Shown one piece after another: positions 19,478 to 60,263 of a stretch of 64,000 bases of DNA (its first letter is position 1; every line of letters begins with the position of its first letter). A program made the translations under genes and the position numbers. Origin of the DNA: an uncultured bacterium (GTDB taxonomy: Bacteria; Armatimonadota; UBA5829); contig CAZBSI010000002.1 of the NCBI GenBank assembly GCA_964494345.1, forward strand, positions 113,830-177,829. Reading direction: 5' to 3'. The notes beneath the pieces are model-generated. The model saw only the letters and a program-made list of their open reading frames with translations. It did no database searches and was not told the DNA's origin.

Positions 19478-19563
19478 GCCGGAGTGGCGGAATGGCAGAC
19501 GCAGTGGTCTCAAAAACCACCGAGGGCAACCTCATGTCGGTTCGACTCCGACCTCCGGCACCA
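19478..19563 (+). tRNA. tRNA-Leu (anticodon CAA), class II with long variable arm, CCA encoded
   Basis: Acceptor stem GCCGGAG/CTCCGGC, D-stem GCG/CGC, anticodon stem GTGGT/ACCAC with loop CTCAAAA, variable arm GAGGG-CAA-CCTC, T-arm GTCGG-TTCGACT-CCGAC, discriminator A, then CCA. Confidence 0.9.
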
Positions 19564-19640
19564 ACCCACTTTGGCCGCAGGCCGTACGACATGCTAATCA
19601 TATATTGTAAGCCGCAAACCACACCAACGAGATCGCCAAT

Positions 19641-20021
19641 ATGTTAAAGGCAATCCTTGTTTTAGCGGGCGGGGCGTTGGGAGCTCTGACCAGGTATGGC
19701 GTCGCTCACTTCAGCGCGAAAACGCACCCCTCCATCTTCCCGTTCGGCACGCTTTATGTAAATTTGATCGGGTGTTTGTTGATAGGAATAGTGTTTGGAC
19801 TAAACGAACTGCGCGGGGTCAATTATCAATTTCGGCTCTTCTTCACCACCGGATTTTTGGGTGCATTGACCACATTTTCAGCCTACAGCCTGGAGACCAT
19901 CAGCCACGCAAACAACGGAGAGACCTCACTGGCCATAGCCAATATCGCAATAAGCAACATAGGTGGGCTATTGTGTGTGAAACTGGGCTCAATGTTGGCC
20001 AGGTTTATTTGCGCGCATTAA
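19641..20021 (+). CDS. crcB: fluoride ion channel CrcB/Fluc
   Basis: 126 aa with 4 TM helices. GGALGALTRY and GFLGALTTFS motifs are typical of CrcB. Confidence 0.85.
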   Translation: MLKAILVLAGGALGALTRYGVAHFSAKTHPSIFPFGTLYVNLIGCLLIGIVFGLNELRGVNYQFRLFFTTGFLGALTTFSAYSLETISHANNGETSLAIANIAISNIGGLLCVKLGSMLARFICAH

Positions 20022-20066
20022 ATCGCACCTGAATACGGGCTACCACATTGTGTTCCAGCCCGGCTA

Positions 20067-20798
20067 TTAAAGTAATTCAAACCAGGTAGAAGCGTCAAAA
20101 CCAATGGACGCCATAACTGACTCCAGTGTCATAGGCGGAGCCAAACGCAGGCGGAACGCCACCCGATTTGATGGCACGTCATCAATAATAGTAAACTGTG
20201 ATCCGTGCGGTTGCCACGTAAATTTATGCCTCCCCGATTTATCGTGACCTTGCAGGTTGCCGCGTTTATTCCATTGCCATTCATACAACTCCTGGTCATA
20301 GCGCACAGTTTCGGTTTCAAACATAGCGCACTCGCGTAAATCAGCTGACTTCATCAAAACTATTGTGCGGCAATGAGAAAACCGCTGTCGAACTGACGAA
20401 ACCCGTTCACGGTAGATGGACAATACCATCTGCCCAATTTCATCGGGAGGCACACTCCGAACATCACTGACGGCAAAGGAATAATCTAACGAACACCGGC
20501 CAGAAATCAGACGGACCGTTTTCGTTTCGGAAGGTATTTTCTGCTTTACGGTCTTTGCCCCCCAACAACAACATCCCAAGCGGATATCGTCCAAACCAAC
20601 GTTTGAAGGGGCCCACTCGGCGCAAATGGCATTAGCAAACATTTTCTCCCAGTCCGGGCCTTCCAAGCGAGCTTCGCCACGAGTATGGACAAGATAGATA
20701 ATCTGTTTTGCCACAGACAGGACAGTTCCTGAAGGAAACACGCCTAAAGGATATCGCGGCTTTACTTTATCGACATTTCTCAATTTTGGGTCTAGCAT
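20067..20798 (-). CDS. putative Type II restriction endonuclease (partner of adjacent C5-MTase)
   Basis: Its ATG overlaps the MTase stop (ATGCTAG, a 7-nt overlap giving translational coupling). No recognisable housekeeping motif. It has the size (243 aa) and position of an R subunit. This is inference only. Confidence 0.45.
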   Translation of the reverse strand: MLDPKLRNVDKVKPRYPLGVFPSGTVLSVAKQIIYLVHTRGEARLEGPDWEKMFANAICAEWAPSNVGLDDIRLGCCCWGAKTVKQKIPSETKTVRLISGRCSLDYSFAVSDVRSVPPDEIGQMVLSIYRERVSSVRQRFSHCRTIVLMKSADLRECAMFETETVRYDQELYEWQWNKRGNLQGHDKSGRHKFTWQPHGSQFTIIDDVPSNRVAFRLRLAPPMTLESVMASIGFDASTWFELL

Positions 20799-21784
20799 AC
20801 AAATAGACTCCGCAGGCTCGGCAAAGTTTCTACCGATGCGACAGGTTTCAATAGCTGGTCCAAAACCCTTTCAGCCACTGCTTGGATGACCGGCACGGGA
20901 ACAGCGTTGCCAACCTGCTTTCTTATTGTTCCATAGCCGCTAATAATCTTGAAAGAATCAGGAAAGCCCTGCAATCGCAACATTTCACGAGGTGTCAGCC
21001 TGCGCTCACCGTTCACCAGCAGATAGTTGTGGCTTGCACCCGCTCTCAATGCACAACTATAAGGCAAAGCGCTCACATGCCCAGACTTGTTTTCATGCCA
21101 AATGGTGGGCTTGTCTGTGGGTTCACATTGTTTCAATCTTCGTTTTCTGATATACTCAGAGGCATAATACTGCTGTGGGACCGTCGGCTCGAGAATTGTG
21201 CTGAGCGGCGCTATCGGCAGAGGAGACATCGGCCACTCAATTTGTCTGTCACTGCGGAATCCCACTATTACAATTCTCTCCCGCTTTTGTGGCAGACCAA
21301 AATCAAGTGCATTGAGTATTCTATGGGAGTGAGTATACCCGAGCATATCCAAAGTCTCAAGTATTCTACTCAATGTCCTGCCACCGTCGTGACTGGCCAA
21401 ACGTTTTACATTTTCCAAAATGAATGCCGGAGTGCGCTTAGCTTCAAGCACTCGCGCAATATCAAAGAAAAGAGTGCCTCTGGTGTCAGCAAAGCCCTTG
21501 GAGGAGCCAATGATACTAAACGGTTGACAAGGGAATCCTGCCAGCAGAATGTCATGATCAGGAATGTCACACCCATCTACTTGGGTTATATCACCTGCCG
21601 GCCGCATGTTGAAATTAGCTTCATACGCATCTTGAGCATCGGGGTCAATGTCGCTGGCAAATACACATTGTCCTCGAATACCTCGGGTCTTCAGCGCCGC
21701 ATCCATTGCGTAGTGAAATCCGCCAATACCACAAAACAGGTCAATGAACCGCACGGCCATTCGCCTCCTATTCGTATATGGCAA
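20792..21784 (-). CDS. DNA (cytosine-5)-methyltransferase
   Basis: Motif I FIDLFCGIGGF, motif IV GFPCQPFS, and ENV (FILENVKRL). Confidence 0.9.
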   Translation of the reverse strand: MPYTNRRRMAVRFIDLFCGIGGFHYAMDAALKTRGIRGQCVFASDIDPDAQDAYEANFNMRPAGDITQVDGCDIPDHDILLAGFPCQPFSIIGSSKGFADTRGTLFFDIARVLEAKRTPAFILENVKRLASHDGGRTLSRILETLDMLGYTHSHRILNALDFGLPQKRERIVIVGFRSDRQIEWPMSPLPIAPLSTILEPTVPQQYYASEYIRKRRLKQCEPTDKPTIWHENKSGHVSALPYSCALRAGASHNYLLVNGERRLTPREMLRLQGFPDSFKIISGYGTIRKQVGNAVPVPVIQAVAERVLDQLLKPVASVETLPSLRSLFVC

Positions 21785-23828: not shown

Positions 23829-24890
23829 CTAGACCTTGTTCTGGCCGTTGTTGTTGCGACGGACCGGGTCGACTATAACGCCATCGAAGACCGCTGCGCT
23901 GGATTTGACGCTGCAGTGGTCTCCGACCACGCATCGCTCGATTATGGTGTTGCGCATCACACATGCGCCTTCCCATAGTATGCTCTGCTTGACCACTGAG
24001 CCCATTTCGAGCACGCAGTTATCTGCAAGCACGCTGTATTCAAGCAGCCTGGCGCCTTTTTCGATTCGGCAGTTATTGCCTATGACCACGGGGTAGCCGA
24101 TCTCGGCGCTGGGGTCGATTTCGACGTTCTCCCCCATCCAGACGTATTTTCGCTCTTCGGGCACGGGGATATTGAAGTCACATCGCCCATTGAGTGCGTC
24201 GCGATGCGCTTCCTGATACTGTTTAAGGTTACCCACGTCTTTCCAATAGCTGGATGTTAGATAACCGAAGAATCGCGCGCGCTGTTCGAGCAGCATCGGG
24301 AAGAGGTTGTGGCCGAAGCCGTATGGGGTGCCCTTGGGGATCAGGTCAAGGACGTCTCGATTGAAGACATAGACCCCGGTGTTGGCCGAGTTGCTGAATA
24401 TGACCTCCCCTTTCGGCTTTTCGAGGAACCTGGTGATCTTGCCGCGCTCGTTTAACAGGGCGATACCGTATTCGGAGGGGTCGTCGACTAACGACAGGCT
24501 GATGGTGGCGATGGCTTTCTTGTCCTGATGATACCGAACCATTCGCTTCAGGTCCATATCCGCCAGATCGTCGCCGCCGACCACCAGGAATGAGTCCTCG
24601 TCAAAAAAGTCCTCGCAGCGCTTTACACTGCCCGCATCCCCCCAGAGCTTATCCTCCGGAGAGTATTGGATCTTGACGCCCCACTTCCTGCCGTCACCGA
24701 AATATTCCTGAATCTGCTCGCCAAGATAATGGAGATTGACCATTATATCTTTGAAGCCGTTTCGGGCGAGAACCTCGACGATGTGTTCCATAACGGGCTT
24801 GTTTACGACCGGCACCATCGGTTTCGGCACGTTTCTAGTTAAAGGATCGAGCCGGGAACCGACCCCGGCGGCCAGGATCATAGCCTTCAT
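23829..24890 (-). CDS. sugar-1-phosphate nucleotidyltransferase with C-terminal left-handed beta-helix (mannose-1-P guanylyltransferase-like)
   Basis: N-terminal MKAMILAAGVGSRLDPLT NTP-transferase motif, with a C-terminal hexapeptide-repeat region. Confidence 0.75.
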   Translation of the reverse strand: MKAMILAAGVGSRLDPLTRNVPKPMVPVVNKPVMEHIVEVLARNGFKDIMVNLHYLGEQIQEYFGDGRKWGVKIQYSPEDKLWGDAGSVKRCEDFFDEDSFLVVGGDDLADMDLKRMVRYHQDKKAIATISLSLVDDPSEYGIALLNERGKITRFLEKPKGEVIFSNSANTGVYVFNRDVLDLIPKGTPYGFGHNLFPMLLEQRARFFGYLTSSYWKDVGNLKQYQEAHRDALNGRCDFNIPVPEERKYVWMGENVEIDPSAEIGYPVVIGNNCRIEKGARLLEYSVLADNCVLEMGSVVKQSILWEGACVMRNTIIERCVVGDHCSVKSSAAVFDGVIVDPVRRNNNGQNKV

Positions 24891-24926
24891 ATCAGATACA
24901 CCTCGCCTTTGATACGCTCTAGCTTG

Positions 24927-26051
24927 TTATTCCAGTTCCTGCACCGACTCCCTGACCGCGCCGATGACCTTGTTGACCTCGTTATCGGTTAATTCCGGGA
25001 ACATCGGCAAGCACAGCACCTCGGCTGCGGCTTTCTCGGCGTGGGGGAAATCCCCGTGCTTGTAGCCCAAAGTTAGATACGCGCGTTCCAGGTGCAGCGG
25101 ACTGGGATAAAACACCTTCGAGCCGACACCGCGCTTCGCCAGCTTCACAGCCAACTCGTCGCGCTGTTCGCATCGGATTGTGAACTGGTGATATATGTGA
25201 TAATTCTCGGTTCTTGACACGGGTAACTGGAGAGGCAGGTCGTTAAGAGCATCTATGTAGCGGTCGGCGATGGCTCGGCGGGCCTCGTTCCATTTTTGAA
25301 CGTGTCCAAGCTTGACCCTGAGCACCGCCGCCTGGAACTCGTCAAGCCGGGAACAGTAGCCGACGTGTTCGTAAGCATATGTCGAATCGACGCCAATATC
25401 TCCCTGGCCGTGGAATCTCAGCGACCGTGCGCGTTTGCAGACATCTTCACAATTCGTGAGAACCATCCCGCCGTCGCCGCAACCGCCGAGGTTTTTTGTG
25501 GGATAAAAGCTGAGCGTCGAGGCGTCGCCGTAGCACCCTATTCCAAGTCCGTGATGCTGCGAGCCTATAGCCTGGGCGCCGTCGTAGATTACCTTTAGGC
25601 CGTGCTTATCTGCGATTTGCGCAAGAGCGGTGGCATCGGCACACTGACCATACAGATGAACCGGCAGAATGGCCTTTGTCTTTGGTGTAATTTTGCTTTC
25701 TATGAGAGAAACATCAAGGTTAAAGTCAGACGGATCTATGTCGACGTATACCGGTTTGGCTCCCACGATCATAATGGCCTCTGTGGTTGCCACGAATGTG
25801 AACGGAGTGGTGACTACCTCATCGCCAGGCCCCACCTGCGCCGCAGCTAATGCTATAACAAGCGCGTCCGTGCCGGAGTTTACCGCAACGCCGTATTCGG
25901 AACCGCAAAACTGAGATATCTCCAATTCCAGGAGCGCACCATTAGGGCCAAGCACGAAGGCGCCGGAATCGAGAACGGACTGGACAGCATGCGCCAGTTC
26001 GTCCTTCAGGGCAAGATTTTGGGCTTTGGGGTTCACTACCGGTATAGCCAA
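24927..26051 (-). CDS. DegT/DnrJ/EryC1/StrS family sugar aminotransferase
   Basis: PLP-dependent fold-type I. SGTDALVIAL and the SFYPTKNLGGCGDGG lysine motif. Confidence 0.85.
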   Translation of the reverse strand: MAIPVVNPKAQNLALKDELAHAVQSVLDSGAFVLGPNGALLELEISQFCGSEYGVAVNSGTDALVIALAAAQVGPGDEVVTTPFTFVATTEAIMIVGAKPVYVDIDPSDFNLDVSLIESKITPKTKAILPVHLYGQCADATALAQIADKHGLKVIYDGAQAIGSQHHGLGIGCYGDASTLSFYPTKNLGGCGDGGMVLTNCEDVCKRARSLRFHGQGDIGVDSTYAYEHVGYCSRLDEFQAAVLRVKLGHVQKWNEARRAIADRYIDALNDLPLQLPVSRTENYHIYHQFTIRCEQRDELAVKLAKRGVGSKVFYPSPLHLERAYLTLGYKHGDFPHAEKAAAEVLCLPMFPELTDNEVNKVIGAVRESVQELE

Positions 26052-26194: not shown

Positions 26195-26345
26195 CACAAC
26201 CCGTCACTCGTCATTTCAAACGCCTTTCACTCGTCATTTCAAGCGCCCCCTTCGTCATTTCGAGCGCCCCCCTTCGTCATTTCGAGCGCAGCGAGAAATC
26301 TGCTTTTTCCGATGCCATATATCCGAACTTCGAAGCCCGACCTCA
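26195..26345 (-). repeat. copy of dispersed modular repeat (reverse orientation): core plus ~4 tandem ~21-nt units
   Basis: Reverse complement reads GGATATATGGCATCGGAAAAAGCAGATTTCTCGCTGCGCTCGAAATGACGAAGGGGGGCGCTCGAAATGACGAAGGGGGCGCTTGAAATGACGAGTGAAAGGCGTTTGAAATGACGAGTGACGG. Confidence 0.85.
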
Positions 26346-26347
26346 GA

Positions 26348-28045
26348 TTACTTAAGCCCATCTATCGCTCTTCCGACATTCGCCCTGATCGCTTCTATTT
26401 TCTTGACGTCCGTGCAGAAATCAGTCAGCGATGGCACGCACTCGTTGACCTGACGCAACGCGTCGACTGCGGCGGAGTAAGCCGGGGTCTTTTTCTTAGC
26501 GTCGGAGGCGGCGTCGATTTTGTCCTGGAGTATTCGGAAGTAATCCCAGTCCTCGATGCCTTCGCGCACTAATTCCCATCTGATGGAATCCACCGGGCCT
26601 TTATCGACGAACTTCTCAGACGGCAGCCGCGACGCCGGATACAGCAGTTGGCCATCGCCATTGCCCCAGTTGTGGGTCCTCTCCGGCGGCTGGCTCATCG
26701 CAACCTGCCACGGGTTGTCCTGCCAATACATCGTATTCCAATACAGAATGCCGTTGACTCCGTATTTCCATGTCTGCCAGTGGAACATACGCATCTGTGC
26801 AGCGGGGTAGTCGATGAAATAGCCATTGGCATAAGGCGCGCGCGGCTCACAGCACAAATACCACCAAAGCTCCTCGCCTTTAGCCTGTCGCGCCTTGCTG
26901 GGCTCTTCGACATAATGATGTACTATCGGCACCCATATATCAACAGATCCTATGAGCTTGTCCTCTACGCGCTTGGTCAGAAGAATCTTAATTCGACCAT
27001 CCGCCATGCGTATGTCTTTGGCAGCTTCCACGATGCTGTCGTAGACGTCCGGCTGAGGCTCGTCTGTTATATAGACATAACCTTTCGACAGAACACCCTT
27101 GTTGATCAAATGCTCCGCTACCTGGCGCATATAATCGATTTTGAGACGCTGGCTGTCCGCGCCCTTTCCGAAACCGAGATCATCGTGCATCCACGACCTC
27201 GGCAGCATGAAGCTGTTAAAATATGGGAAATACTTCTGAATAGCCACGTCGAAGTCTTTGAAATCGACCTTAACCTCGCCGTTTTCCCTCTCGATTTTAA
27301 GATCATATCCGGCGTAAGGCTGATAAGGCGAGACTCTATGCTTGCGGAAATTGAGATTATACAAATCGACCAGCTTGCGCTGCTGTTCGATGGTGGCGGC
27401 GCCCTGGTAGTTGAACACTTTGTGCATAGTGTTGCCGTAGGCAGTGCGCAGGCGGCTCACCGACGGCAGCGTGAAGTTCCATACTCGCAGATGAACCGGC
27501 ACCGCGATCGTGCCGATACTCGGCGCGATTACGTCAATGGTTCCCTTATATTCCCCCGCAGGCGTATTTCTGGGCACATAAACCGTCACCCACGCTGAGG
27601 TATTGCGATTCTCGATCGCGTTATATGGGAAGTGATCCGGCAACGGGTCCGGATACAGCCCCGGCTCTATGCCTTCGTTGGTCGGGGTGGAGCAGTTGAC
27701 ATACTCCACATTTTTGACCGTAATGCTCCACGCCGGCACCTTTCCCCCCTTTGGGCCGGTGAGGGTGCGCGGTATAACTTTGACGTTGCCGATGCGTGAT
27801 TTTGTGGTCAGTACTATCTGAAACGGCTCATATTCGTTGTTTGCCGCATATAGCTGTACACTTTTGGCCTTATTGGCCGGCACGGGTGTGTTCGGCAAAA
27901 TCTTCTGATTAGGGCTTGCTGTCCAGGCTGTGCCCCATTTGCCCTCGGCTACTACCCCCCAAGCCGACGCGGCCTGAGACTGCGCATAGGCACAGGTTGT
28001 GGAAATCAGGAAAAACAAGATTGGAATCGACAGGATGTATCGCAT
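26348..28045 (-). CDS. secreted hypothetical protein, possibly DUF4091-type glycoside-hydrolase-like
   Basis: Signal peptide MRYILSIPILFFLISTTCAYA, with start at ATG 28045 and GGAGGTG upstream. Size ~566 aa. Only weak similarity to DUF4091-family N-terminal regions recalled. Confidence 0.45.
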   Translation of the reverse strand: MRYILSIPILFFLISTTCAYAQSQAASAWGVVAEGKWGTAWTASPNQKILPNTPVPANKAKSVQLYAANNEYEPFQIVLTTKSRIGNVKVIPRTLTGPKGGKVPAWSITVKNVEYVNCSTPTNEGIEPGLYPDPLPDHFPYNAIENRNTSAWVTVYVPRNTPAGEYKGTIDVIAPSIGTIAVPVHLRVWNFTLPSVSRLRTAYGNTMHKVFNYQGAATIEQQRKLVDLYNLNFRKHRVSPYQPYAGYDLKIERENGEVKVDFKDFDVAIQKYFPYFNSFMLPRSWMHDDLGFGKGADSQRLKIDYMRQVAEHLINKGVLSKGYVYITDEPQPDVYDSIVEAAKDIRMADGRIKILLTKRVEDKLIGSVDIWVPIVHHYVEEPSKARQAKGEELWWYLCCEPRAPYANGYFIDYPAAQMRMFHWQTWKYGVNGILYWNTMYWQDNPWQVAMSQPPERTHNWGNGDGQLLYPASRLPSEKFVDKGPVDSIRWELVREGIEDWDYFRILQDKIDAASDAKKKTPAYSAAVDALRQVNECVPSLTDFCTDVKKIEAIRANVGRAIDGLK

Positions 28046-28272
28046 ATAAACACCTCCGATGACGAATCGCATCCGCGTAAGCATTATATCATTCTTTCTC
28101 ACAATCGTGACTGATTGATGGGCTATGAGGGTATAATGCAATCGGCAGACGATTTTGAGACGTGAAATGATGTGCCGTATCTTGCGTCTAATATAATAGC
28201 GACCAGGCAATTGTCGCGAATGTTGGTTGCGACCGGCCAGCGCTGAGGTTAAACAGGAGGAGGGCTTTTACA

Positions 28273-29037
28273 ATGAGAGAATTGCGTTTGCGACCGCTGT
28301 GTTATGTGATAATGGCTGCAGTGCTGACGATCTCGATCGGATTGCCGATCCTGGCGGCTGATGCCGCGCAGACTAATGTGAACCTTGACCTGAAAGATAC
28401 TGATGTCAAGGCGGCCATAGAGGCCCTTTTTCGAGGCACGGGAAGGAACTACTCCATAGATTCCAATGTCTCGGGCATCGTTTCGGCGCTGTCTATTAAG
28501 GATGTTCCGTTCGAAACTGCGCTCAGGAGTCTTACGAAATCGGCCGGGTTGGTATATCGACAGGACGGCGGAGTATATCTTATCAGCGTTAAGCCAGATA
28601 CCTCAAATCTCGTCGCTGCGTCTATGCCGATATCAGAACTGCCGTCGGTGGATGCTACTACCGATGAGCCTGAGATTAAAATAGAAAAGATTCCGCTGAA
28701 TAACGTCAGCGCCAACGAGATATTGTCGATTCTCGGCGGTACGGATTCCAATAGAGCCTACGGCGGCTACGGTATGGGCGGCTGGAATTATGGCATGGGA
28801 ATGGGCGGTCGTTATGGCGGCTCTGGCGGATACGGTAGTTACGGCGGCAATTACGGTGGCAACTATGGCGGTTATGGTAACTACGGCAGCTACGGAAACC
28901 GCAGCTATGGCGGCAACTTTGGTGGTTATGGCAGCAACTACGGCGGTTATGGCAGCAACTATGGCGGCTACAACAACCGTTCGTCAGGTTACGGTGGGTC
29001 TTACGGTGGATCTTATGGCGGCTACCGAGGTTGGTAG
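28273..29037 (+). CDS. secreted protein with secretin-N/STN-like domain and C-terminal Gly/Tyr-rich low-complexity tail
   Basis: N-terminal signal/anchor. Residues ~35-105 (NVNLDLKDTDVKAAIEALF...GLVYRQDGGVYLI) resemble the secretin/TonB short N-terminal domain. The C-terminal ~95 aa is almost pure G/Y/S/N (GGYGSYGGNYGGNYGGYGNYGSYG...). Confidence 0.55.
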   Translation: MRELRLRPLCYVIMAAVLTISIGLPILAADAAQTNVNLDLKDTDVKAAIEALFRGTGRNYSIDSNVSGIVSALSIKDVPFETALRSLTKSAGLVYRQDGGVYLISVKPDTSNLVAASMPISELPSVDATTDEPEIKIEKIPLNNVSANEILSILGGTDSNRAYGGYGMGGWNYGMGMGGRYGGSGGYGSYGGNYGGNYGGYGNYGSYGNRSYGGNFGGYGSNYGGYGSNYGGYNNRSSGYGGSYGGSYGGYRGW

Positions 29038-29274: not shown

Positions 29275-30021
29275 TTGCGCTTTTATCGGACACTACGCAC
29301 ATCTACCCTCATAGTGCTGAGCCTCGCCCTGCTTTCGCCAATTATCAGCGGACAGGGTTTATCAAGTTTCAAAATCGAGGGAGTTCCGCGAATCAAACAA
29401 ATGCAGAATTATTGCGGCCCAGCCACAATGTCCTCGATATTTTGTTATCTGGGAGAAAATATCACCCAGGAAGAGATCGGCAAGACGATATATGATCCCG
29501 TCGGTGGGGCGACCCACGGCGCCGATATGCTCTATTATGCCAAAAACAAAGGCTACTGCGCCTATTCATTCAACTCCGGCATAGCTGACGCCAAACGCAA
29601 GCTGGTATCAGGCACGCCGCTGCTTGTTTTGCAACAAAACAGCAATCGCGACCATTCCGGGCACTTCCGAGTGCTCACCGGCTACGACGATGCAGCCGAA
29701 AAGTTCTACGTAACCGACCCCTACTACGACGATATCACAGAGATGACTTATGCGCAGTGTGAAAAGTTGTGGAAGCCGATGGGGTATTGGGCGATGATTA
29801 TTGTGCCGGCGGATAAAGATGACTTCAAAACCGAGCTCGGTGCAAAAAATCCGGTCTTTCACATGGACCTTTCCTATGCTCTATATAAGCACGGGCAATA
29901 TACGGACGCGCTGAAGGAGATCAATGCCGCGCTATCTCTGGAGCCGTCCAACAAATATGCATTGTCGATGCTCTCCAAGATAAACGGGGCCATCGGAGCC
30001 GGCAAAAAGAGCAAATCCTGA
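29275..30021 (+). CDS. secreted C39-like cysteine peptidase domain protein with C-terminal TPR-like region
   Basis: Signal peptide. QNYCGPATMSSIF (catalytic Cys) and SGHFRVLTGYD (His) are characteristic of Peptidase_C39-like domains. TTG start. Confidence 0.6.
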   Translation: MRFYRTLRTSTLIVLSLALLSPIISGQGLSSFKIEGVPRIKQMQNYCGPATMSSIFCYLGENITQEEIGKTIYDPVGGATHGADMLYYAKNKGYCAYSFNSGIADAKRKLVSGTPLLVLQQNSNRDHSGHFRVLTGYDDAAEKFYVTDPYYDDITEMTYAQCEKLWKPMGYWAMIIVPADKDDFKTELGAKNPVFHMDLSYALYKHGQYTDALKEINAALSLEPSNKYALSMLSKINGAIGAGKKSKS

Positions 30022-30023
30022 GC

Positions 30024-32150
30024 CTACCGCACTTTAGAAGCCTGGGCCGTCGCTTTGGCGGCCTCGGCTTTGTTTCCGGCCGCAGAATAGGCGGCGCTCA
30101 GACCCGTGTAGCAGCCCTTGAACAGTTGCAGCATATCCTCGGCGTCGCTTTTGGTGACTAGTCCGATTCTTCTCTGCACTTCCCGCATATCCCCGGATGA
30201 TCTCCATCGCTCCAGTCGATTGATTGCTGCGCGATACTCCCGAATTGCGGCGCTGTAGTAGCGTCGTGCGAGGTATTTGTCGGCGAAGTGGGCGTGAGCA
30301 AAGGCGTAGGTGCCGTCGACGATCTCCGGAGTCCCTTTGATATTCTCATAATCTGAGCTTTCAATTGCCATCAACCGTCGCAACACGGACTCGAAGTTTT
30401 CGGTGTCATCGGTGTCTCTGTAAATTAGAGCGAGTTTATATAGAGTGCGCGTTGAGTTAGGGTGATATTTCAGAGCCTGTTTGAAACTCGATATAGCCAA
30501 CGGCAGGTCGTGGTGATTCTCCGCAATCACACCTTTCGCAAACCACCCGCCTTCAGAGGTGCGCCGAGCCAGTTTAATCGCCATATCCGCCTGCTCATAC
30601 GCAGCATCGTCGGAAATAGCCTGTGTCGAAAGCCAGGTGGCCAATTGCCGCCGATAGGTGGGCATCAGAGGAGATGCAGAGACGGCTTTTTTATAGAGGT
30701 CGATGATCCGCAGAGCATTGTCGGGGTTCCTCGCGTATACGGCCTCGGCTTTAGTCGCGTAGAAATCACCCAGGCCAAATGAAACCGTCATAGCCATCAA
30801 CACAACGCACGCAGCGCCTGCGACTGCGCGGCCAACAGGGGCTAACTTCACCTTTTTATCAGCCGCACCGGATCGTGAGACCAATACCCCCGCCACCACC
30901 CAAAACGGTATCGCTATTCCAGAGACATACCAATCTGAATCGACCAGGCTTCTTATCGCCGAGCCGAACAGAGCCGCAAACAGGGCGCAATCCAGCAGCC
31001 TCCAGCCGCTGTACGGCAAAATATCCGTCCACGTGACCGACCCGAATGCACATTCGTCGGCTGCTTCTTTGACAGGCTCTGATCGCCTGCCGACGCTATG
31101 AATAGTCCCCAGAACGGCGGAGCGGGCTATGGCCAGCAGCAACAACATAAAAGCAGCAGCAGCCGGTATTCCGCACTCAGCCGCGAGCTGCAAATATGAG
31201 TCGTGCGCCATTCGCGTCGGGCCAGCTATGGTGTACTGTTGATAAGTCACAGGATAAGTCCCCGGCCCCGTGCCGAGCCAGGGCTGCGCCCGAATCATGT
31301 CCAAAGTCGCCTGCCAGGTGTAGGCTCGAAACACAGTTGAATGAACCTGTGTGCCGCCGGACTCCGCAGCCTGTATCCTGGATTTAACCGGGGCTGAAAA
31401 GAAAACCAGCAGTGGGGTCAATACCGCACACAGCACAAGCAATCTAAGAAATCGGGATCGTCGCAACGCCTTTGTAACGATGGCCAGCAAAAAGAACAAC
31501 CCAAGCGACATCACCGCGGCGATAATACCGAACTTGGCCCCAGTCAACATCAGCGCCAGCGTCTGCACCACAAAAGCAAAGCCCGCCAGCAATACTAACA
31601 GGCTGCGCCGTGTCACCAGAAAGATTCCCAACGTCACCGGAAGCGTAATGACCAGATAGCCTGCAAAGAAGCTGGGGTTCAAAAAAGGCCCAAACAGCCT
31701 GCCGTGTTCACCGCGCCCCATCAGAGACTGCCAGAAGTGTATGCCCCCGCCGGTGTCCAGAGCGTAGTCTCTGACCCCCATCGCGCTGATAATCAAGGCC
31801 GAAAGCAGCAAAACCCAGACGGTCGCTGTCGCCATTTTCCGGTCCTCGCTCAATGAAGAAGCCAGAAGATAAACGCCCAAACAAGCCGCGAAGAATACCA
31901 TTTGATTCAGGCTGAAGAAAATAGCGCGGCTGAAACAAGTGGAGATAATATAAAACAGAAGAAAAGCAGCAGCAAACCACAGCCCCGGCACCCGTTGCCA
32001 GGTTCCGGATTTGTCTTTTGTCAGCAACAGGCGACAACAGACCCCGCCCAGGATAATCAGGTACAAAAACCCGTTAGTGAGCGTGCCAAGTTTGCCACCG
32101 ATTACCGGAGCAAGCACAATCGCTAATAAAAGCAGCACGGAGCCTTCCAC
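30024..32150 (-). CDS. O-antigen ligase (Wzy_C) family membrane protein with C-terminal TPR domain
   Basis: ~10 TM helices. Central Wzy_C-like region (MAHDSYLQLAAECGIPAAAAFMLLL). C-terminal ~250 aa TPR-like repeats. Located immediately downstream of the minor pilin genes. Confidence 0.7.
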   Translation of the reverse strand: MEGSVLLLLAIVLAPVIGGKLGTLTNGFLYLIILGGVCCRLLLTKDKSGTWQRVPGLWFAAAFLLFYIISTCFSRAIFFSLNQMVFFAACLGVYLLASSLSEDRKMATATVWVLLLSALIISAMGVRDYALDTGGGIHFWQSLMGRGEHGRLFGPFLNPSFFAGYLVITLPVTLGIFLVTRRSLLVLLAGFAFVVQTLALMLTGAKFGIIAAVMSLGLFFLLAIVTKALRRSRFLRLLVLCAVLTPLLVFFSAPVKSRIQAAESGGTQVHSTVFRAYTWQATLDMIRAQPWLGTGPGTYPVTYQQYTIAGPTRMAHDSYLQLAAECGIPAAAAFMLLLLAIARSAVLGTIHSVGRRSEPVKEAADECAFGSVTWTDILPYSGWRLLDCALFAALFGSAIRSLVDSDWYVSGIAIPFWVVAGVLVSRSGAADKKVKLAPVGRAVAGAACVVLMAMTVSFGLGDFYATKAEAVYARNPDNALRIIDLYKKAVSASPLMPTYRRQLATWLSTQAISDDAAYEQADMAIKLARRTSEGGWFAKGVIAENHHDLPLAISSFKQALKYHPNSTRTLYKLALIYRDTDDTENFESVLRRLMAIESSDYENIKGTPEIVDGTYAFAHAHFADKYLARRYYSAAIREYRAAINRLERWRSSGDMREVQRRIGLVTKSDAEDMLQLFKGCYTGLSAAYSAAGNKAEAAKATAQASKVR

Positions 32151-32242
32151 CAGCCACCATCCCTGCTATCGTTGCATTGGATAAACGATACGCCGGAAGC
32201 GCCACCGTGTCAAGCGAGTGTCCGAACGATAGGAGTTATACC

Positions 32243-33841
32243 TTAGTCCGTCAGCACCTTCCATGAGAGCCTGTCGTATTGCCCGGTGGTCGGATAAAAC
32301 GGCGGCGGAGCTACGGCTAACCTGGGGTCGTAGTTGTAGTCTTTGGCATAACCGGTTTTGATCGTGCCTCCGCTTATGGTTCCGACCGCGCCACGGGTGC
32401 TTTGGATCAGCCCTCCGATAACCTTTAGAGCGCCCGTATTGCCCTGATTATAGTTGTTTACGGAGATGCTGCCGTTAACGCTGCTGCTGCCGGCCAGCAA
32501 AACAGCGTCAATTTCACGGTCGGGGTGGTTATGCTTTAAGGTCCCGTCATCTGCGATATAGATATCCTGCGCAACAAGGCCGAGCGTACCGGCAGCCAGG
32601 TTAGTCTCGTGAGTAGATGGCAGTTGCTTATTTGGACGGGTTTTATAGACCAGATCATTCGTAATGGTGATATTCTTTTTGGCCACGGTATCGGTGGCTA
32701 TCGTCCAAGCTGAGCGACGGGTGATTTTACCGGCGGAATATGAATTATCCGCGATTGTGCCGCTAAGCGATGTTATGTCACCGGTGCAGTAGATTACCCC
32801 GTTTGAAAACGAGTTGGCCGAGGTCGGACTGCCCTGACCCATCGCCGTTCCAGACGCTGTTGTGGTCCCACTCGATTTGTTAAATATGACCGTTGCAGAT
32901 TTTTGATACGCACCGGTGCCCTGGGTTATAGTAGCTACTTGATTCCCGCTTGCATCGACCGACATCGTTATCGCTGCGTCGCCTCGTATATATATCCCAC
33001 CCGTATCGGCGCCATCGACTTTGTTGGCTTTTAAATAGACTCCGTCGGTAGTCGGAAAGCCGGTGTCGCTGCCCCAGGCCGCCTTTTTTTGGTCTTCGGT
33101 GGACGGCGGCAGGTTGATTTTTTGAATGCCGAGCAGATATCCCCTGCTTCCGTTGAGAAATACCTTCTGGTAATCGGTCTCGTTGGCGGGCCTGCGTGGG
33201 TTATAGTTGATCGTAGTGCCGGACGCCGTGACCTGATCCAAAAATATCGGCCTTCGGGTGCTCGACCACCCGCCGTAGTCTATATTGAAGTTAGTGCCTC
33301 CGGTGTTGTTGCTGTGAACAGGCCCATCGACCCTGTCGTTGGAAGCCCACCAAATCACGCTGCCGGAGGTTGAGGTTTCGCGATCTGTAAAATACGCATA
33401 TTTGCCGAAAGTGGACTGTCTGACCACAACTTGCACACGCCTGGTATGGCCGGACACGGTGCCGGTGGATATTATCTCATATTTCTTTAAAAACACCCTG
33501 CCATTATCCGGGTCGCAGATTATATTTACCGTCCACGCGCCGGCAGGGGACGCGCCGATTTGAGCGGTTATGTTTTGATCCGAAGTCGGCGGCAGGGCCT
33601 GATCGCGCAGCCAAAGCACCCCTCTCTCCGCCCCGGATTCCGCCACCTGCAAAGCCGATGATCTAAGCTGCTGGCGGTTGTTAGAGCGAATGGCGGCGCT
33701 GGTCATACCCAAAAGGATCACCGACAAGCCGATTATCACAAATGCAGCTCCGGCCACCGCTAAAAGCAGCGAGCCTCGCTTATTACGAGCAAGCGTCATA
33801 TTCGATATTGGTGATTTATATTTGTTTACAACCGGAGGCAT
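32243..33841 (-). CDS. large PilX-like type IV pilus minor pilin/tip-associated protein
   Basis: N-terminal hydrophobic helix after KRG (MTLARNKRGSLLLAVAGAAFVIIGLSVILL), then a Thr/Ser/Gly-rich beta-rich region. Start ATG 33841 with AAGGTG RBS overlapping the upstream stop. Confidence 0.5.
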   Translation of the reverse strand: MPPVVNKYKSPISNMTLARNKRGSLLLAVAGAAFVIIGLSVILLGMTSAAIRSNNRQQLRSSALQVAESGAERGVLWLRDQALPPTSDQNITAQIGASPAGAWTVNIICDPDNGRVFLKKYEIISTGTVSGHTRRVQVVVRQSTFGKYAYFTDRETSTSGSVIWWASNDRVDGPVHSNNTGGTNFNIDYGGWSSTRRPIFLDQVTASGTTINYNPRRPANETDYQKVFLNGSRGYLLGIQKINLPPSTEDQKKAAWGSDTGFPTTDGVYLKANKVDGADTGGIYIRGDAAITMSVDASGNQVATITQGTGAYQKSATVIFNKSSGTTTASGTAMGQGSPTSANSFSNGVIYCTGDITSLSGTIADNSYSAGKITRRSAWTIATDTVAKKNITITNDLVYKTRPNKQLPSTHETNLAAGTLGLVAQDIYIADDGTLKHNHPDREIDAVLLAGSSSVNGSISVNNYNQGNTGALKVIGGLIQSTRGAVGTISGGTIKTGYAKDYNYDPRLAVAPPPFYPTTGQYDRLSWKVLTD

Positions 33842-33850
33842 ACCGACACC

Positions 33851-34450
33851 TTAATGATTATAATAGTTGCGCATATAGATGACGCGCTGGGTCAGGGTGG
33901 TCTCTTTTTTGCCGGAATCGCTTGCTTTATATTTCAACACCGATTCGCGAGTGGTGATCGTAATCTGGACAGCATCAGCCCCCAGTTCCGAATTGACCTC
34001 GAATAGCAGCGAGGAGACGTCTTTTCTAATGGGCAGCAGTTTGCCCTTCCAACTCCACCACAACCATGTCCCATTTTTGCCGACTATCCCGGATTGGTCC
34101 GACGTGTAGAAATACATCGGATTCTGGGTATCCGATTCGGTGCGGTCGTAATGACCGTCCACGGTTTCAGGCAAGATCACGCACAATCTGCGTCCGCTAT
34201 ATGGGCCGCTGTCGTAGATTGTGATCTTTTGGGCCTCTCGCACCCACAGCACCATAAACTGCAGCGCCGAAGAGGCGTTGGTGTCGCTGCTGACCTGCGC
34301 CAGATCATCGTCCACTGCACGCATCGCAGCGATAAGCATGCTCACCGTGCAAACCAGCAGCAGAGCCATTATTCCTGTCGCCGCCAGCACCTCAATTACG
34401 GTGAACCCTCGGCGATTCAAAACACGTTTTTGGGTGATGTTAACTCGCAT
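33851..34450 (-). CDS. prepilin-type N-terminal cleavage/methylation domain pseudopilin (PilW-like)
   Basis: Leader MRVNITQKRVLNRRG|FTVIEVLAA. The G-F-T-x-x-E prepilin signature is present. Start chosen at ATG 34450 rather than the ORF-track 34486. Confidence 0.7.
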   Translation of the reverse strand: MRVNITQKRVLNRRGFTVIEVLAATGIMALLLVCTVSMLIAAMRAVDDDLAQVSSDTNASSALQFMVLWVREAQKITIYDSGPYSGRRLCVILPETVDGHYDRTESDTQNPMYFYTSDQSGIVGKNGTWLWWSWKGKLLPIRKDVSSLLFEVNSELGADAVQITITTRESVLKYKASDSGKKETTLTQRVIYMRNYYNH

Positions 34451-34934
34451 TGGATATATAGGCAACCTGTTCAACTTTGCTGTCACCGGCCCGCCTGGGC
34501 GATGAACGCCAGGTGATGGTGACGGTGATCTTCTTCATTCTCGTGTCTGTGGGGTGATTCTCAATTTTCAGGGTTGCTGTCGGCGGCTGGCCGACGCTCG
34601 CGCCAGGCAGATAATCCGCAACCCCATCCACACTGACGAAACTGTAGGGAGATGAGGTCGGCGAGCTATCGATAAAGCCTCCCTCTTGCAGTTCGGAATA
34701 GGTCAAACGGCCCCATTCGATAGCCCTGAGCTGGTCGATTTTGTGCTGCGCCAGGCTAATGGCCTGCGCATACTCTCCGTTGATCTTGGCTGCGGATTTG
34801 CCGACTATTAACGATGACGAAAAAACGACCACCAATAGCGAAAACACGAAAAGCGATATCATCACTTCCATCAAAGTGAGGCCGCTTTTAAGCCGCCGGC
34901 GCCCAATTAAAATGCTCGGTCTGGTCTTGTCCAT
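34440..34934 (-). CDS. prepilin-type pseudopilin (PilV/GspI-like)
   Basis: KSG|LTLMEVMISLFVF prepilin cleavage/methylation motif. RBS GGGAGTGA. Confidence 0.7.
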   Translation of the reverse strand: MDKTRPSILIGRRRLKSGLTLMEVMISLFVFSLLVVVFSSSLIVGKSAAKINGEYAQAISLAQHKIDQLRAIEWGRLTYSELQEGGFIDSSPTSSPYSFVSVDGVADYLPGASVGQPPTATLKIENHPTDTRMKKITVTITWRSSPRRAGDSKVEQVAYISNAS

Positions 34935-40183: not shown

Positions 40184-41008
40184 CTAACCTTTGCTGTAGA
40201 GTTGAACGGGGTAGAGCGCGCTGCGGTGTTGTTCAAAACTCGCGGGATTGTCGTATATCAGCAGGCAGTTTGTAATCGATCGGCTCGGGTTGGAAATAAG
40301 TTTTCCGGCATAATATAACCCGGTCGAGGAGCCGCCGTCCAGCCCCGCTGCATCGACGCATCCCAGCGCCTGCATCGCTTTGGCGAGCTGGCTGAGATAA
40401 GTCTTGCGGGTGGTGGTCACCAATACCAGCTTATTAGCCCTGGTCACACCGATTCCCGTGCGGATGCGAGGTGAAAAATGCACGCTGCTTCGAAATCCCT
40501 GGTCGCGCGGATATACCGCCCATTTGCCGCCGCTAAGCAGGCTCGGCCCTGCCGAAAGCACTGACTGGTAATCGCTCCAGTTATATTTTTGGCTGTTTAC
40601 AAACGTCACCGAGTTGCTCTCGCCGAAAGCCACTGCTGTGCCGAGATAGCCTCCGTGGATGAGTTGTCCGTCTATGACTATATCCCCGGTGGGTTTAAAT
40701 GTGCGAGTGCAGAAAAAAGTGCCGTCTATAGCGGCGGCGGGCCGGGTCCGGCGCAGCATTGATCGGAAAGACTCTGTGGTGCCGATGCCGTTTTTTGCTA
40801 TCAACGGGGTGACGCGCACGTCCGGACTGTTGAGGTTTGCCGTGATTATGTGCACCCATACGCCGGCGACTTTCGCTTTTCTATACGACACATTGCTTGC
40901 GGCAAAGCAAGATTGCAGAGAAGACAAAAACACTAATACAAATATCAGGCTAAGCGGGAAAAGACTGCGGTTTTGCACTTGGGCCTCCATGCTCATATAC
41001 GCAAGCAA
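40184..41008 (-). CDS. secreted phosphodiester glycosidase family protein (NAGPA-like)
   Basis: Signal peptide. C-terminal GLDGGSSTGLYY motif typical of the phosphodiester glycosidase domain. Confidence 0.65.
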   Translation of the reverse strand: MLAYMSMEAQVQNRSLFPLSLIFVLVFLSSLQSCFAASNVSYRKAKVAGVWVHIITANLNSPDVRVTPLIAKNGIGTTESFRSMLRRTRPAAAIDGTFFCTRTFKPTGDIVIDGQLIHGGYLGTAVAFGESNSVTFVNSQKYNWSDYQSVLSAGPSLLSGGKWAVYPRDQGFRSSVHFSPRIRTGIGVTRANKLVLVTTTRKTYLSQLAKAMQALGCVDAAGLDGGSSTGLYYAGKLISNPSRSITNCLLIYDNPASFEQHRSALYPVQLYSKG

Positions 41009-48406: not shown

Positions 48407-48465
48407 AGCGCTCCCCCTCTTTTCCTCGCCCCGTACGGTTGGTTATGAGTATAGGAGCCGGCCGC

Positions 48466-60124: not shown

Positions 60125-60263
60125 AAAAGTTGGCGGTTGGCAATTCGCCACACAATGTGCATTATTTTCTGGCTTTCGCGTTTTCCTCCTCCCACAATGC
60201 CGAGATGGGTTAATTAAAGCGAGCCTTTAATTGCCCTTGCCGAAGGGAGAGTTTGGGATTAGA

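What the first reader, a model, noticed from the sequence alone, without database searches (positions are those of the whole stretch)
29275..34934. Minor-pilin operon ending in a Wzy_C/TPR protein: candidate pilin O-oligosaccharyltransferase module, with divergent C39-like peptidase
The minus-strand run is pilV-like (34934-34440), pilW-like (34450-33851, overlapping), a 532-aa PilX-like protein (33841-32243), then a Wzy_C-domain membrane protein with a C-terminal TPR domain (32150-30024).

O-antigen-ligase-fold enzymes such as PilO/TfpO of Pseudomonas and PglL of Neisseria are the O-oligosaccharyltransferases that glycosylate type IV pilins. That precedent suggests the Wzy_C/TPR gene glycosylates these minor pilins. 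This is inference from synteny.

Directly divergent from it are a secreted C39-like Cys peptidase (29275-30021) and the STN/GY-rich protein. No major pilin, PilB/C ATPase/platform or secretin is in the window, so this is a satellite minor-pilin locus.
Basis: inference. Interest (0 to 1): 0.5.

Follow-up and report, generated by a model that had tools for sequence, protein, structure and literature searches.

The report
Pilus-tip genes beside a TPR-fused glycan ligase
In an uncultured Armatimonadota genome, three pilus-tip genes sit next to a membrane sugar-chain ligase that carries a protein-binding TPR domain. Comparison with relatives shows the ligase is not a dedicated pilin glycosylase; it is a phylum-wide enzyme whose steadier neighbour is a secreted cysteine peptidase.

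Summary
Two points need correcting. The C39-like peptidase gene is convergent with the Wzy_C/TPR gene, not divergent. The Wzy_C/TPR gene is also set off from the tightly packed pilin genes by a 92-nt gap holding a conserved promoter-like footprint.

The 532-aa protein is structurally a ComZ/GspK/PilX-class tip minor pilin with a beta-solenoid insert. The three pilin genes therefore form an ordinary type IV pilus tip (priming) cassette.

Across 41 loci with orthologues (at least 34% identity):
- A pilin cassette lies directly upstream in 10 of 33 evaluable loci, all in one clade.
- The convergent C39 peptidase is present in 19 of 36.
- More distant homologues follow GT2 glycosyltransferase genes instead.
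- The pilin cassette stands alone in three other Armatimonadota loci.

No PglL-specific HMM matches, and no conserved C-terminal Ser/Thr is seen on the pilins.

Verdict: this is a real Wzy_C-family ligase of an undescribed TPR-fused, peptidase-paired variant. Pilin-dedicated glycosylation is possible but weakly supported, and its acceptor (protein or lipid/polysaccharide) remains open. Interest is moderate to low.

The parts
34440..34934 (-). PilV-like core minor pilin, 164 aa. The leader ends ...RLKSG|LTLMEV, with Glu at +5.
   Evidence: ORF. N_methyl scores 22.8 bits, above the gathering cut-off. TIGR02532 scores 18.3 bits against a cut-off of 16.3. One of only two prepilin motifs in the window. 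Orthologues are found in stand-alone cassettes L084-L086.
33851..34486 (-). PilW-like core minor pilin. Probably starts at the ATG at 34450, giving 199 aa, leader ...NRRG|FTVIEV, and an 11-nt overlap with the upstream gene.
   Evidence: ORF. N_methyl scores 18.6 bits, just under the cut-off. Prepilin motif found. The C-terminal ...RV(V/I)Y(L/M)RNY is conserved in orthologues.
32243..33841 (-). Large tip minor pilin of the PilX/GspK/ComZ class, 532 aa. It has an N-terminal pilin helix without Glu5, a pilin head interrupted by a beta-solenoid, and a conserved C-terminal PPPFYPTTGxYDRLSW.
32185..32213 (-). Promoter-like element TTGACA-17-TATCGT in the 92-nt gap upstream of the Wzy_C/TPR gene.
   Evidence: Consensus scan, 10 of 12 matches. 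Both hexamers are identical in L004, L010 and L087, while the flanking spacer diverges and L010/L087 carry an insertion of about 100 nt. Function is inferred, not shown.
30024..32150 (-). WaaL-fold (Wzy_C) lipid-linked-glycan ligase, 708 aa. It has 12 core transmembrane helices, an extra 13th helix (about residues 438-465), and a C-terminal TPR domain (about 479-707) predicted to be periplasmic.
29275..30021 (+). Secreted papain-like C39-type cysteine peptidase with one C-terminal TPR, 248 aa. It is convergent with the ligase gene and is the most conserved neighbour of the ligase.
   Evidence: Peptidase_C39_2 E 2e-17. NF033920 scores 80 bits against a cut-off of 150. Q42, C47, H130 and D148 are conserved in at least 95% of 15 orthologues. 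A convergent copy lies downstream in 19 of 36 evaluable orthologous loci.
28273..29037 (+). Signal peptide, then a secretin-type STN/N0 domain, then a Gly/Tyr/Ser-rich tail of about 100 aa ending GGYRGW. A frequent member of the ligase neighbourhood.
   Evidence: STN E 1.4e-11. Resembles the N-terminal region of PilQ/HofQ/GspD. Tail composition and the C-terminal motif are conserved in 14 orthologues.
26348..28210 (-). GH123-family glycoside hydrolase, 620 aa. It is the divergent partner of the STN gene and co-migrates with it.
   Evidence: GH123_cat E 3e-28. The STN/GH123 pair lies downstream of the ligase in the window clade but upstream of it in L003 and L098.

Best explanation
The finding juxtaposes two independently conserved units.

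**Unit 1 (32243-34934).** This is an ordinary type IV pilus core minor-pilin cassette: PilV-like, PilW-like and a ComZ/GspK/PilX-class tip pilin with a beta-solenoid. Such a cassette would form the tip/priming complex of a pilus whose major pilin and motor are encoded elsewhere.

**Unit 2.** This is a phylum-wide Armatimonadota enzyme with a WaaL-fold Wzy_C membrane domain. By analogy with WaaL and the O-OTases, that domain would take an undecaprenyl-diphosphate-linked glycan at the periplasmic face and transfer it to an acceptor, using the conserved Arg/His loop. It is fused through a 13th transmembrane helix to a periplasmic TPR domain, which most plausibly selects or holds the acceptor. The gene appears to have its own promoter. 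Its steadiest neighbour is a convergently encoded, secreted C39-like cysteine peptidase that also carries a TPR. An STN/Gly-Tyr-rich protein and a GH123 hydrolase often accompany the pair.

**Most likely reading.** The enzyme is a periplasmic glycan ligase with protein acceptor(s) chosen through the TPR, that is, a general or multi-client O-oligosaccharyltransferase. Pilins may be among its clients, but it is not dedicated to them.

**What is shown and what is inferred.** Shown: domain and fold identities, conserved residues, and the synteny statistics. Inferred: topology, donor, acceptor class, promoter activity, and any ligase-peptidase cooperation.
For: - **Topology.** The model has 13 helices followed by the TPR domain. 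Lys/Arg-rich loops fall after TM2, TM4, TM6, TM8, TM10 and TM12 (sequence). This places both the catalytic loop and the TPR on the periplasmic side.
- **Precedent for TPR fusion.** TPR-fused Wzy_C O-OTases are reported for WsfB, the predicted S-layer O-OTase of Paenibacillus alvei (PMC2943079).
- **Pilin side.** ComZ/GspK-class fold. The same V-W-X cassette stands alone in L084-L086. Beta-solenoid PilX proteins and duplicated core minor-pilin sets are described in cyanobacteria (bioRxiv 10.64898/2026.02.12.705559).
- **Independence of the two units.** Pilins lie upstream in 10 of 33 evaluable loci, against the C39 gene downstream in 19 of 36. L088, L003, L098, L111 and L112 keep the ligase-C39 pair without pilins. 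Thirteen distant homologue loci have GT2 genes directly upstream.
- **Own promoter.** A conserved -35/-10 footprint lies in the gap.
Against: - No experiment or sequence feature here distinguishes a protein acceptor from lipid A-core or another glycolipid or polysaccharide. TPR domains also serve as polysaccharide-export scaffolds.
- Within the window's own clade the pilin adjacency is persistent (10 loci) and survives cassette duplication and reordering. That is more than casual linkage and keeps the pilin-client idea alive.
- The ligase-C39 pair is convergent, so it is not co-transcribed. It is also absent from about half of the orthologous loci.
- Loci are from metagenome-assembled genomes, some are redundant (L010 and L087 appear to be the same species), and the tree is a rough neighbour-joining tree.
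- Whether these genomes hold another Wzy_C paralogue that could be the true WaaL could not be checked.
Confidence: 0.45

Rival explanations
1. One reading: the Wzy_C/TPR protein is a dedicated pilin O-oligosaccharyltransferase. It would be co-expressed with the three minor pilins upstream and would glycosylate them, as a TfpO/PglL-like module.
For: - Same strand, directly downstream, with no strong terminator in the 92-nt gap.
- One or two minor-pilin cassettes are always immediately upstream in a clade of 10 loci, despite differing cassette types and orders.
- 21 of 31 PglL homologues lie next to pilin genes (PMC3643930).
- The TPR is periplasmic (plus inference).
- The PilV-like protein of the window ends in Ser.
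Against: - 23 of 33 evaluable orthologous loci lack pilins.
- The cassette is self-sufficient elsewhere.
- A conserved separate promoter-like element precedes the ligase gene.
- No PglL_A or Wzy_C_2 HMM match.
- At 708 aa it is larger than all four described O-OTase classes, which span 420-600 aa (PMC9829042).
- The C-terminal Ser is replaced by Asp or Glu in linked loci L017, L092, L100 and L006.
- Known enzymes target major pilins or ComP, not tip minor pilins.
Confidence: 0.15
2. The protein is the lineage's WaaL-type ligase, or a Wzy-like polymerase, for a lipid- or polysaccharide-linked envelope glycan such as O-antigen on lipid A-core. The TPR would act as a periplasmic scaffold, and the position next to pilin genes would be inherited synteny with no functional meaning.
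For: - The best and only membrane-protein structural match is WaaL.
- The family is conserved across Armatimonadota orders and looks like a housekeeping gene.
- Distant homologues follow one or two GT2 glycosyltransferases. In four Fimbriimonadales-type loci (L029, L030, L039, L057) they face PBP2/PBP1a cell-wall genes.
- No PglL-specific HMM matches.
- In L088 the ligase abuts the same Amidase/MurI/RNase PH/Ham1 block that flanks the stand-alone pilin cassette in L084 and L085. This suggests shared ancestral neighbourhood rather than function.
Against: - Characterised WaaL enzymes have no need for, and lack, a 230-residue periplasmic TPR domain.
- The gene is not in an LPS-core or O-antigen cluster in any locus examined.
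- The recurrent neighbours are proteins (a peptidase and an STN protein), not LPS genes.
Confidence: 0.3
3. The real client of the ligase is the neighbouring secreted STN/N0 protein. Its Gly/Tyr/Ser-rich tail would be O-glycosylated, as Tyr-linked glycans are added to the S-layer protein by WsfB-type enzymes. The C39-like 'double-glycine' peptidase would process the tail and GH123 would trim the glycan.
For: - The ligase, C39, STN and GH123 genes stay clustered although the STN/GH123 pair has moved to the other side of the ligase in L003 and L098.
- The tail is 15-29% Tyr and 30-56% Gly, with its composition conserved across 14 orthologues.
- C39 peptidases classically cleave after Gly-Gly.
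- WsfB is a Wzy_C+TPR enzyme predicted to glycosylate an S-layer protein that carries Tyr-linked glycans (PMC2943079).
Against: - Purely contextual.
- L111 and L090 keep the ligase-C39 pair with no STN gene detected nearby, and L112 keeps only a distant GH123.
- Half of the orthologues have none of these neighbours.
- No sequence comparison with WsfB was possible.
Confidence: 0.1

Closest known systems
WaaL O-antigen ligase (Cupriavidus metallidurans, PDB 7TPG/7TPJ)
   Different: Only 18% identity. The window protein has an extra 13th transmembrane helix and a C-terminal TPR domain of about 230 residues. It does not lie in an LPS gene cluster.
Pilin and general O-oligosaccharyltransferases: PglL, PglS, TfpO (PilO), TfpM
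   Same: They share the Wzy_C domain with a conserved catalytic His and lie next to type IV pilin genes (PMC3643930, PMC9829042). The P-x2-G-x-G motif, with an Arg 15 residues upstream, has the same spacing as the published PglL numbering (P313/G316/G318/R298). This is an arithmetic match only and was not aligned.
   Different: No PglL_A or Wzy_C_2 HMM match. Size is 708 aa against 420-600 aa. The upstream genes are tip minor pilins, not the major pilin or ComP. No conserved C-terminal Ser/Thr is present. The adjacency is confined to one clade.
WsfB, predicted S-layer protein O-OTase of Paenibacillus alvei
   Same: The domain architecture is the same: Wzy_C plus a C-terminal TPR, with the TPR proposed to mediate protein-protein interaction with the acceptor (PMC2943079).
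   Different: WsfB is from a Gram-positive organism and sits in an S-layer glycan gene cluster. No sequence or structure comparison could be made here, and no S-layer gene is seen in the window.
IctB family (TIGR00947), cyanobacterial Wzy_C-type membrane proteins of unknown function
   Same: This is the best curated-family match to the membrane domain (E 3e-25 over residues 9-347).
   Different: The score of 89 bits is far below the 366-bit cut-off. No TPR appears in the matched model region.
ComZ-PilA2 tip complex of Thermus thermophilus, GspI-J-K tip complex, and cyanobacterial PilV-PilW-PilX core sets
   Different: Identity is only about 14%. No FimT/GspH-like fourth member and no major pilin are in the locus. 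DNA binding and other activities are untested.
C39 double-glycine peptidases and the PA2778 family (NF033920)
   Same: Papain-like Q/C/H/D catalytic set. Peptidase_C39_2 scores above its cut-off. A TPR follows the peptidase domain.
   Different: The protein is stand-alone and has a signal peptide; it is not the N-terminal domain of an ABC exporter. The NF033920 score of 80 bits is below the 150-bit cut-off.

Membership tests
Wzy_C / WaaL-fold lipid-linked glycan ligases | Pfam PF04932 match above the gathering score | tested here: met
   74.9 bits against a cut-off of 31.7, E 7e-21. All 27 family members match.
Wzy_C / WaaL-fold lipid-linked glycan ligases | 12-helix WaaL membrane fold | tested here: met
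Wzy_C / WaaL-fold lipid-linked glycan ligases | Conserved periplasmic-loop Arg and His required for activity (E. coli WaaL R215/R288/H338) | tested here: inconclusive
   R258, R275 and H316 are invariant in 27 homologues. Their equivalence to the WaaL residues rests on motif spacing, not on a verified alignment.
PglL-type general O-OTase | Match to the PglL_A HMM (PF15864), which separates PglL from WaaL (PMC3643930) | tested here: not met
   No hit at E <= 0.1 for the window protein. Not among the 25 families most often matched by the 27 members at E <= 1; 53 families matched in all and only 25 were shown.
PglL-type general O-OTase | Glycosylates internal Ser/Thr sequons of several periplasmic proteins | not testable with these tools
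   Requires glycoproteomics or heterologous reconstitution.
TfpO / TfpM pilin-specific O-OTase | Protein of 420-470 aa encoded immediately downstream of its major pilin or pilin-like substrate (PMC9829042) | tested here: not met
   The protein is 708 aa. The upstream genes are PilV/W/X-class minor pilins, separated from it by a 92-nt gap with a conserved promoter-like element.
TfpO / TfpM pilin-specific O-OTase | Acceptor pilin ends in Ser or Thr | tested here: not met
   The PilV-like protein ends ...NAS only in the window, L004 and L010. In L017, L092, L100, L006 and L084-L086 it ends in Asp or Glu. The PilW- and PilX-like proteins do not end in Ser/Thr in most loci (L087 was not evaluable for PilV/PilW).
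WsfB-type TPR-fused O-OTase | Wzy_C domain with a C-terminal TPR | tested here: met
   Wzy_C at residues 191-335 and a TPR domain at about 479-707. The WsfB architecture is taken from PMC2943079.
WsfB-type TPR-fused O-OTase | Sequence relatedness to WsfB and location in an S-layer glycan cluster | not tested
No S-layer gene was recognised in the window.
IctB family (TIGR00947) | Score above the NCBIfam cut-off | tested here: not met
   89 bits against a cut-off of 366.4.
Type IV pilin / pseudopilin (class III signal peptide) | N-terminal G|F/L-T-L-x-E motif followed by a hydrophobic helix | tested here: met
   PilV-like: Pfam above the gathering score and TIGR02532 above its cut-off. PilW-like: motif present but Pfam and TIGR scores just below their cut-offs.
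PilX / GspK / ComZ tip minor pilins | Pilin fold lacking Glu5, with a large inserted domain that fits only at the filament tip | tested here: met
Peptidase C39 (double-glycine peptidases) | Papain-like Q/C/H/D catalytic residues and a family HMM match | tested here: met
   PF13529 scores 64.3 bits against a cut-off of 24, and PF03412 scores 26.7 against 22. Q42, C47, H130 and D148 are conserved.
Peptidase C39 (double-glycine peptidases) | Fusion to, or partnership with, an ABC exporter that secretes a double-glycine-leader peptide | tested here: not met
   The protein is a stand-alone 248-aa protein with a signal peptide. No ABC exporter is adjacent in the window or in L001, L003, L111 or L112.

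The most novel reading that the evidence does not exclude
The TPR-fused WaaL-fold ligase and the TPR-bearing secreted C39-like peptidase form a previously undescribed periplasmic protein glycosylation-and-processing pair in Armatimonadota. Its clients would include pilus-tip minor pilins and/or the STN-domain protein with a FUS-like Gly/Tyr/Ser tail. If so, this would be a fifth class of bacterial O-oligosaccharyltransferase that recognises substrates through a TPR.
Probability: 0.15. Interest if true: 0.6.

Novelty: new variant of a known kind. Interest (0 to 1): 0.3.

Why it matters
O-oligosaccharyltransferases and O-antigen ligases cannot be told apart by sequence. The four characterised O-OTase classes all come from Proteobacteria.

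A TPR-fused, 13-helix Wzy_C enzyme conserved across a poorly studied diderm phylum would be a natural candidate for a new acceptor-recognition mode. The analogy is with the TPR domains of OGT or TMTC enzymes. Such an enzyme would also interest glycoengineering.

As it stands the evidence is contextual. The pilin cassette itself is an ordinary tip/priming set, and the pilin-glycosylation link is only clade-specific synteny. The practical value of this check is to redirect attention from 'pilin operon with its glycosylase' to the ligase-peptidase pair, and to define the experiments that would settle the acceptor.

Tried and rejected
- **PDB sequence searches with the PilV-like, PilW-like and C39 proteins.** These gave only noise or TPR hits.
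- **TfpO-style C-terminal Ser acceptor.** Rejected as a conserved feature.
- **GT2 linkage.** The GT2 gene in the window (14717-15523) was checked as a possible displaced partner of the ligase. A tblastn of one upstream GT2 protein from the distant loci found no similarity anywhere in the window.
- **Literature.** A search for PA2778 returned nothing informative. Searches for Armatimonadota pili or ligases and for IctB function returned nothing decisive.
- **RNA elements.** An Rfam scan of 19-42 kb found only a tRNA, so no riboswitch or sRNA explains the intergenic gaps.
- **Phylogeny against reference enzymes.** A tree against bona fide WaaL, PglL, TfpO and WsfB was not attempted. Reference sequences were not retrievable, and identity below 20% would make such a tree unreliable.
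- **Tree artefact.** L089 sits oddly in the neighbour-joining tree, probably because of a sequence-extraction problem, and was ignored.

Full report
**1. What is in the sequence**

Pfam and NCBIfam results:
- 34440-34934 carries a prepilin N-methylation motif above the cut-off.
- 33851-34486 carries the same motif just below the cut-off.
- The 532-aa protein has only a weak DUF4900 hit.
- The 708-aa protein has Wzy_C (E 7e-21) plus C-terminal TPRs. It also makes a sub-threshold match to the cyanobacterial IctB family.
- 29275-30021 is Peptidase_C39_2 (E 2e-17) plus one TPR.
- 28273-29037 is an STN/secretin-N0 domain followed by a Gly/Tyr-rich tail.
- 26348-28210 is a GH123 hydrolase.

Homologues place the window in Armatimonadota. 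The exact 708-aa and 248-aa proteins occur on a 437-kb public contig.

Only two prepilin motifs exist in the 64 kb. None of the 38 ORFs Pfam-scanned across the window has pilus or secretion machinery domains; they are mostly housekeeping, sugar-metabolism or transport genes. A few ORFs, such as 57500-59488 and 60231-61364, were not scanned.

- The C39 gene is convergent with the ligase gene (stop codons at 30021 and 30024). It is not divergent.
- The ligase gene is not packed with the pilin genes. V/W overlap and W/X are 9 nt apart, but 92 nt separate X from the ligase. That gap holds TTGACA-17-TATCGT. Both hexamers are identical in L004, L010 and L087, although the rest of the spacer has diverged and L010/L087 contain an insertion of about 100 nt. 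L010 and L087 appear to be the same species, so this amounts to two independent comparisons. It is a phylogenetic footprint for a separate promoter, which is inference and not proof.

**2. The pilin genes**

An AlphaFold model of the 532-aa protein was built from 29 homologues (pLDDT 87.6). It shows a long N-terminal helix and a pilin head interrupted by a beta-solenoid.

ComZ is argued to sit at the pilus tip with PilA2 (PMC6561018). Beta-solenoid PilX proteins have been proposed as a 'tip plug' in cyanobacterial core minor-pilin sets, and two paralogous sets are described there. The V-W-X genes are therefore a normal tip/priming cassette.

The family has more than 200 members with E <= 0.001. 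In three genomes at 42-48% identity the same three genes form a stand-alone unit, with no Wzy_C, C39, STN or GH123 gene within 7 kb.

Relatives of the window carry a second, paralogous triplet, here called type B. Its large member shares only the N-terminal PilX-like module with the window type (hhalign probability 94%).

**3. The ligase**

A 27-sequence alignment, reaching down to 23% identity, shows invariant R151, N158, P159, R258, R275, P290-x2-G293-x-G295-x-G297 and H316, among others.

Lys/Arg-rich loops follow helices 2, 4, 6, 8, 10 and 12. By the positive-inside rule, the catalytic loop (about 251-327) and the TPR domain both face the periplasm. This topology is inferred.

Neither the window protein nor, among the families listed for the 27 homologues, any member matches PglL_A. 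That HMM was built to separate PglL from WaaL (PMC3643930). Wzy_C_2 is also unmatched.

At 708 aa the protein is larger than TfpM, TfpO, PglS and PglL, which span 420-600 aa (PMC9829042). A Wzy_C+TPR architecture is, however, reported for the predicted S-layer O-OTase WsfB (PMC2943079).

**4. Synteny**

Loci came from one scan of GTDB species representatives, one metagenome scan and contig look-ups. This gave 41 loci, including the window, with an orthologue of at least 34% identity. A uniform tblastn census gave these counts:
- A pilin cassette (type A and/or B) lies directly upstream in 10 of 33 evaluable loci.
- A convergent C39 gene lies directly downstream in 19 of 36.

Every pilin-positive locus is also C39-positive. 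L088, L003, L098, L111 and L112 keep the ligase-C39 pair without pilins.

In a rough neighbour-joining tree the pilin-linked loci fall in one clade, with L012 and L088 as exceptions inside it. Within that clade the cassettes vary:
- Type A alone: window, L004, L010.
- A then B: L006.
- B then A: L100, L092.
- B alone: L090.
- An extra V/W pair followed by B: L001.

The adjacency is therefore persistent but clade-restricted.

The divergent STN/GH123 pair lies downstream of the ligase in the window clade and upstream of it in L003 and L098. The four genes stay together through a rearrangement.

Thirteen loci with more distant full-length homologues (22-34% identity; Chthonomonadales, Fimbriimonadales and others) have one or two GT2 glycosyltransferase genes immediately upstream. 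In four Fimbriimonadales-type loci (L029, L030, L039, L057), PBP2 and PBP1a genes are convergent downstream. None of these distant loci has pilins or a C39 gene.

In L088 the ligase abuts the same Amidase/Germane/MurI/RNase PH/Ham1 block that flanks the stand-alone pilin cassette in L084 and L085. This hints that part of the adjacency is inherited neighbourhood.

**5. Acceptor clues**

The PilV-like protein ends ...ISNAS in the window, L004 and L010. It ends ...NAD...NTD...NTE or ...NVE in the other linked and unlinked loci. A TfpO/TfpM-type C-terminal Ser/Thr acceptor is therefore not a conserved feature.

Ser+Thr content of all three pilins is an unremarkable 15-23%. PglL-type sequons cannot be recognised from sequence.

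The C39-like protein keeps Q42, C47, H130 and D148 in at least 95% of 15 orthologues, so it is probably an active peptidase.

The tail of the STN protein is 30-56% Gly and 15-29% Tyr in all 14 orthologues. Its sequence is unconserved apart from an invariant C-terminal GGYR-x-W.

**6. Interpretation**

The best-supported picture is two independent units side by side:
- a type IV pilus tip cassette;
- a phylum-wide WaaL-fold ligase with a periplasmic TPR domain and probably its own promoter, whose most conserved neighbour is a secreted C39-like peptidase.

I favour a TPR-guided protein acceptor, meaning a general or multi-client O-OTase with pilins possibly among the clients (0.45). A WaaL-like lipid or polysaccharide ligase is next (0.30). 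The STN/Gly-Tyr protein as the main client is at 0.10.

The enzymatic class is secure. The acceptor is not, and sequence alone cannot settle it.

**7. Novelty and score**

The pilin cassette is an ordinary member of a known kind. The ligase is a variant of a known kind: a Wzy_C enzyme with a 13th helix and a periplasmic TPR, paired with a TPR-bearing C39-like peptidase. I found no description of this variant.

Interest is 0.3. It is a reasonable lead for a new O-OTase class in an under-studied phylum, but it rests on context only, and the specific pilin-glycosylation claim is weakened by the comparative data.

Noticed in passing
window 28273-29037 (+); orthologues in L001, L003, L004, L006, L010, L017, L087-L089, L092, L097, L098, L100: A secreted protein with a secretin-type STN/N0 domain but no secretin domain. 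It is followed by a tail of about 100 aa made of [G/S]Y[G/S]-type repeats (30-56% Gly, 15-29% Tyr). The tail's sequence drifts freely, but it always ends GGYR-x-W. The underlying DNA contains short tandem repeats (28839-29015). The tail resembles eukaryotic low-complexity, phase-separating domains, and its role in the envelope is unknown.
   Followed up: partly
window 26348-29037; L003 4158-7731; L098 337-3919: The STN gene and the GH123 hydrolase gene are always a divergent pair. The pair lies on opposite sides of the ligase gene in different lineages, so it moved as a unit yet stayed next to the ligase-C39 pair.
   Followed up: partly
L001 3509-7890; L006 4299-9791; L100 3252-8738; L092 3206-8554; L090 97-1800: Relatives carry a second, paralogous minor-pilin triplet (type B, with a large member of about 561-568 aa). 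It shares only the N-terminal PilX-like module with the window's 532-aa protein. [quoted passage not shown]
   Followed up: partly
window 32185-32213 (-): The -35 TTGACA and -10 TATCGT hexamers upstream of the ligase gene are perfectly conserved in orthologous loci with 64-86% protein identity, while the surrounding intergenic DNA diverges and gains an insertion of about 100 nt.
   Followed up: yes
window 26204-26289: A 22-nt unit (TCGTCATTTC(A/G)AGCGCCCCC(C)T) is repeated about four times in the intergenic region between the DegT-type aminotransferase gene and the 3' end of the GH123 gene. It has no Rfam match.
   Followed up: no
window 19478-21784: A tRNA gene (19478-19560, +) is followed by a lower-GC segment (0.48, against about 0.53 elsewhere). 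The segment holds a C-5 cytosine DNA methylase (20792-21784, -) overlapping an unannotated 243-aa ORF (20067-20798, -). This may be a small restriction-modification islet inserted next to the tRNA.
   Followed up: no
L001 11286-11852; L006 13040; L100 11990; L111 11340-11912; L112 11112-11678: A DUF981 membrane-protein gene follows the C39 peptidase gene in several relatives. It is missing from the window, where only 237 nt separate the STN and C39 genes.
   Followed up: no
L020, L022-L024, L028-L032, L036, L039, L044, L057: Distant full-length homologues of the ligase (22-34% identity) lie directly downstream of one or two GT2 glycosyltransferase genes. In four Fimbriimonadales-type loci (L029, L030, L039, L057) they face PBP2/PBP1a genes. 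This suggests the ancestral context was envelope-glycan synthesis.
   Followed up: partly
window 11888-13030, 14717-15523, 23829-26051, 40184-41008, 45739-49503: The window is rich in scattered glycan-related genes: a WbsX-type glycosyltransferase, a GT2, an NTP-transferase plus a DegT aminotransferase, a NAGPA phosphodiester glycosidase, and GalK/GalT. They are interspersed with housekeeping genes, and none of those checked is syntenic with the ligase in relatives.
   Followed up: partly
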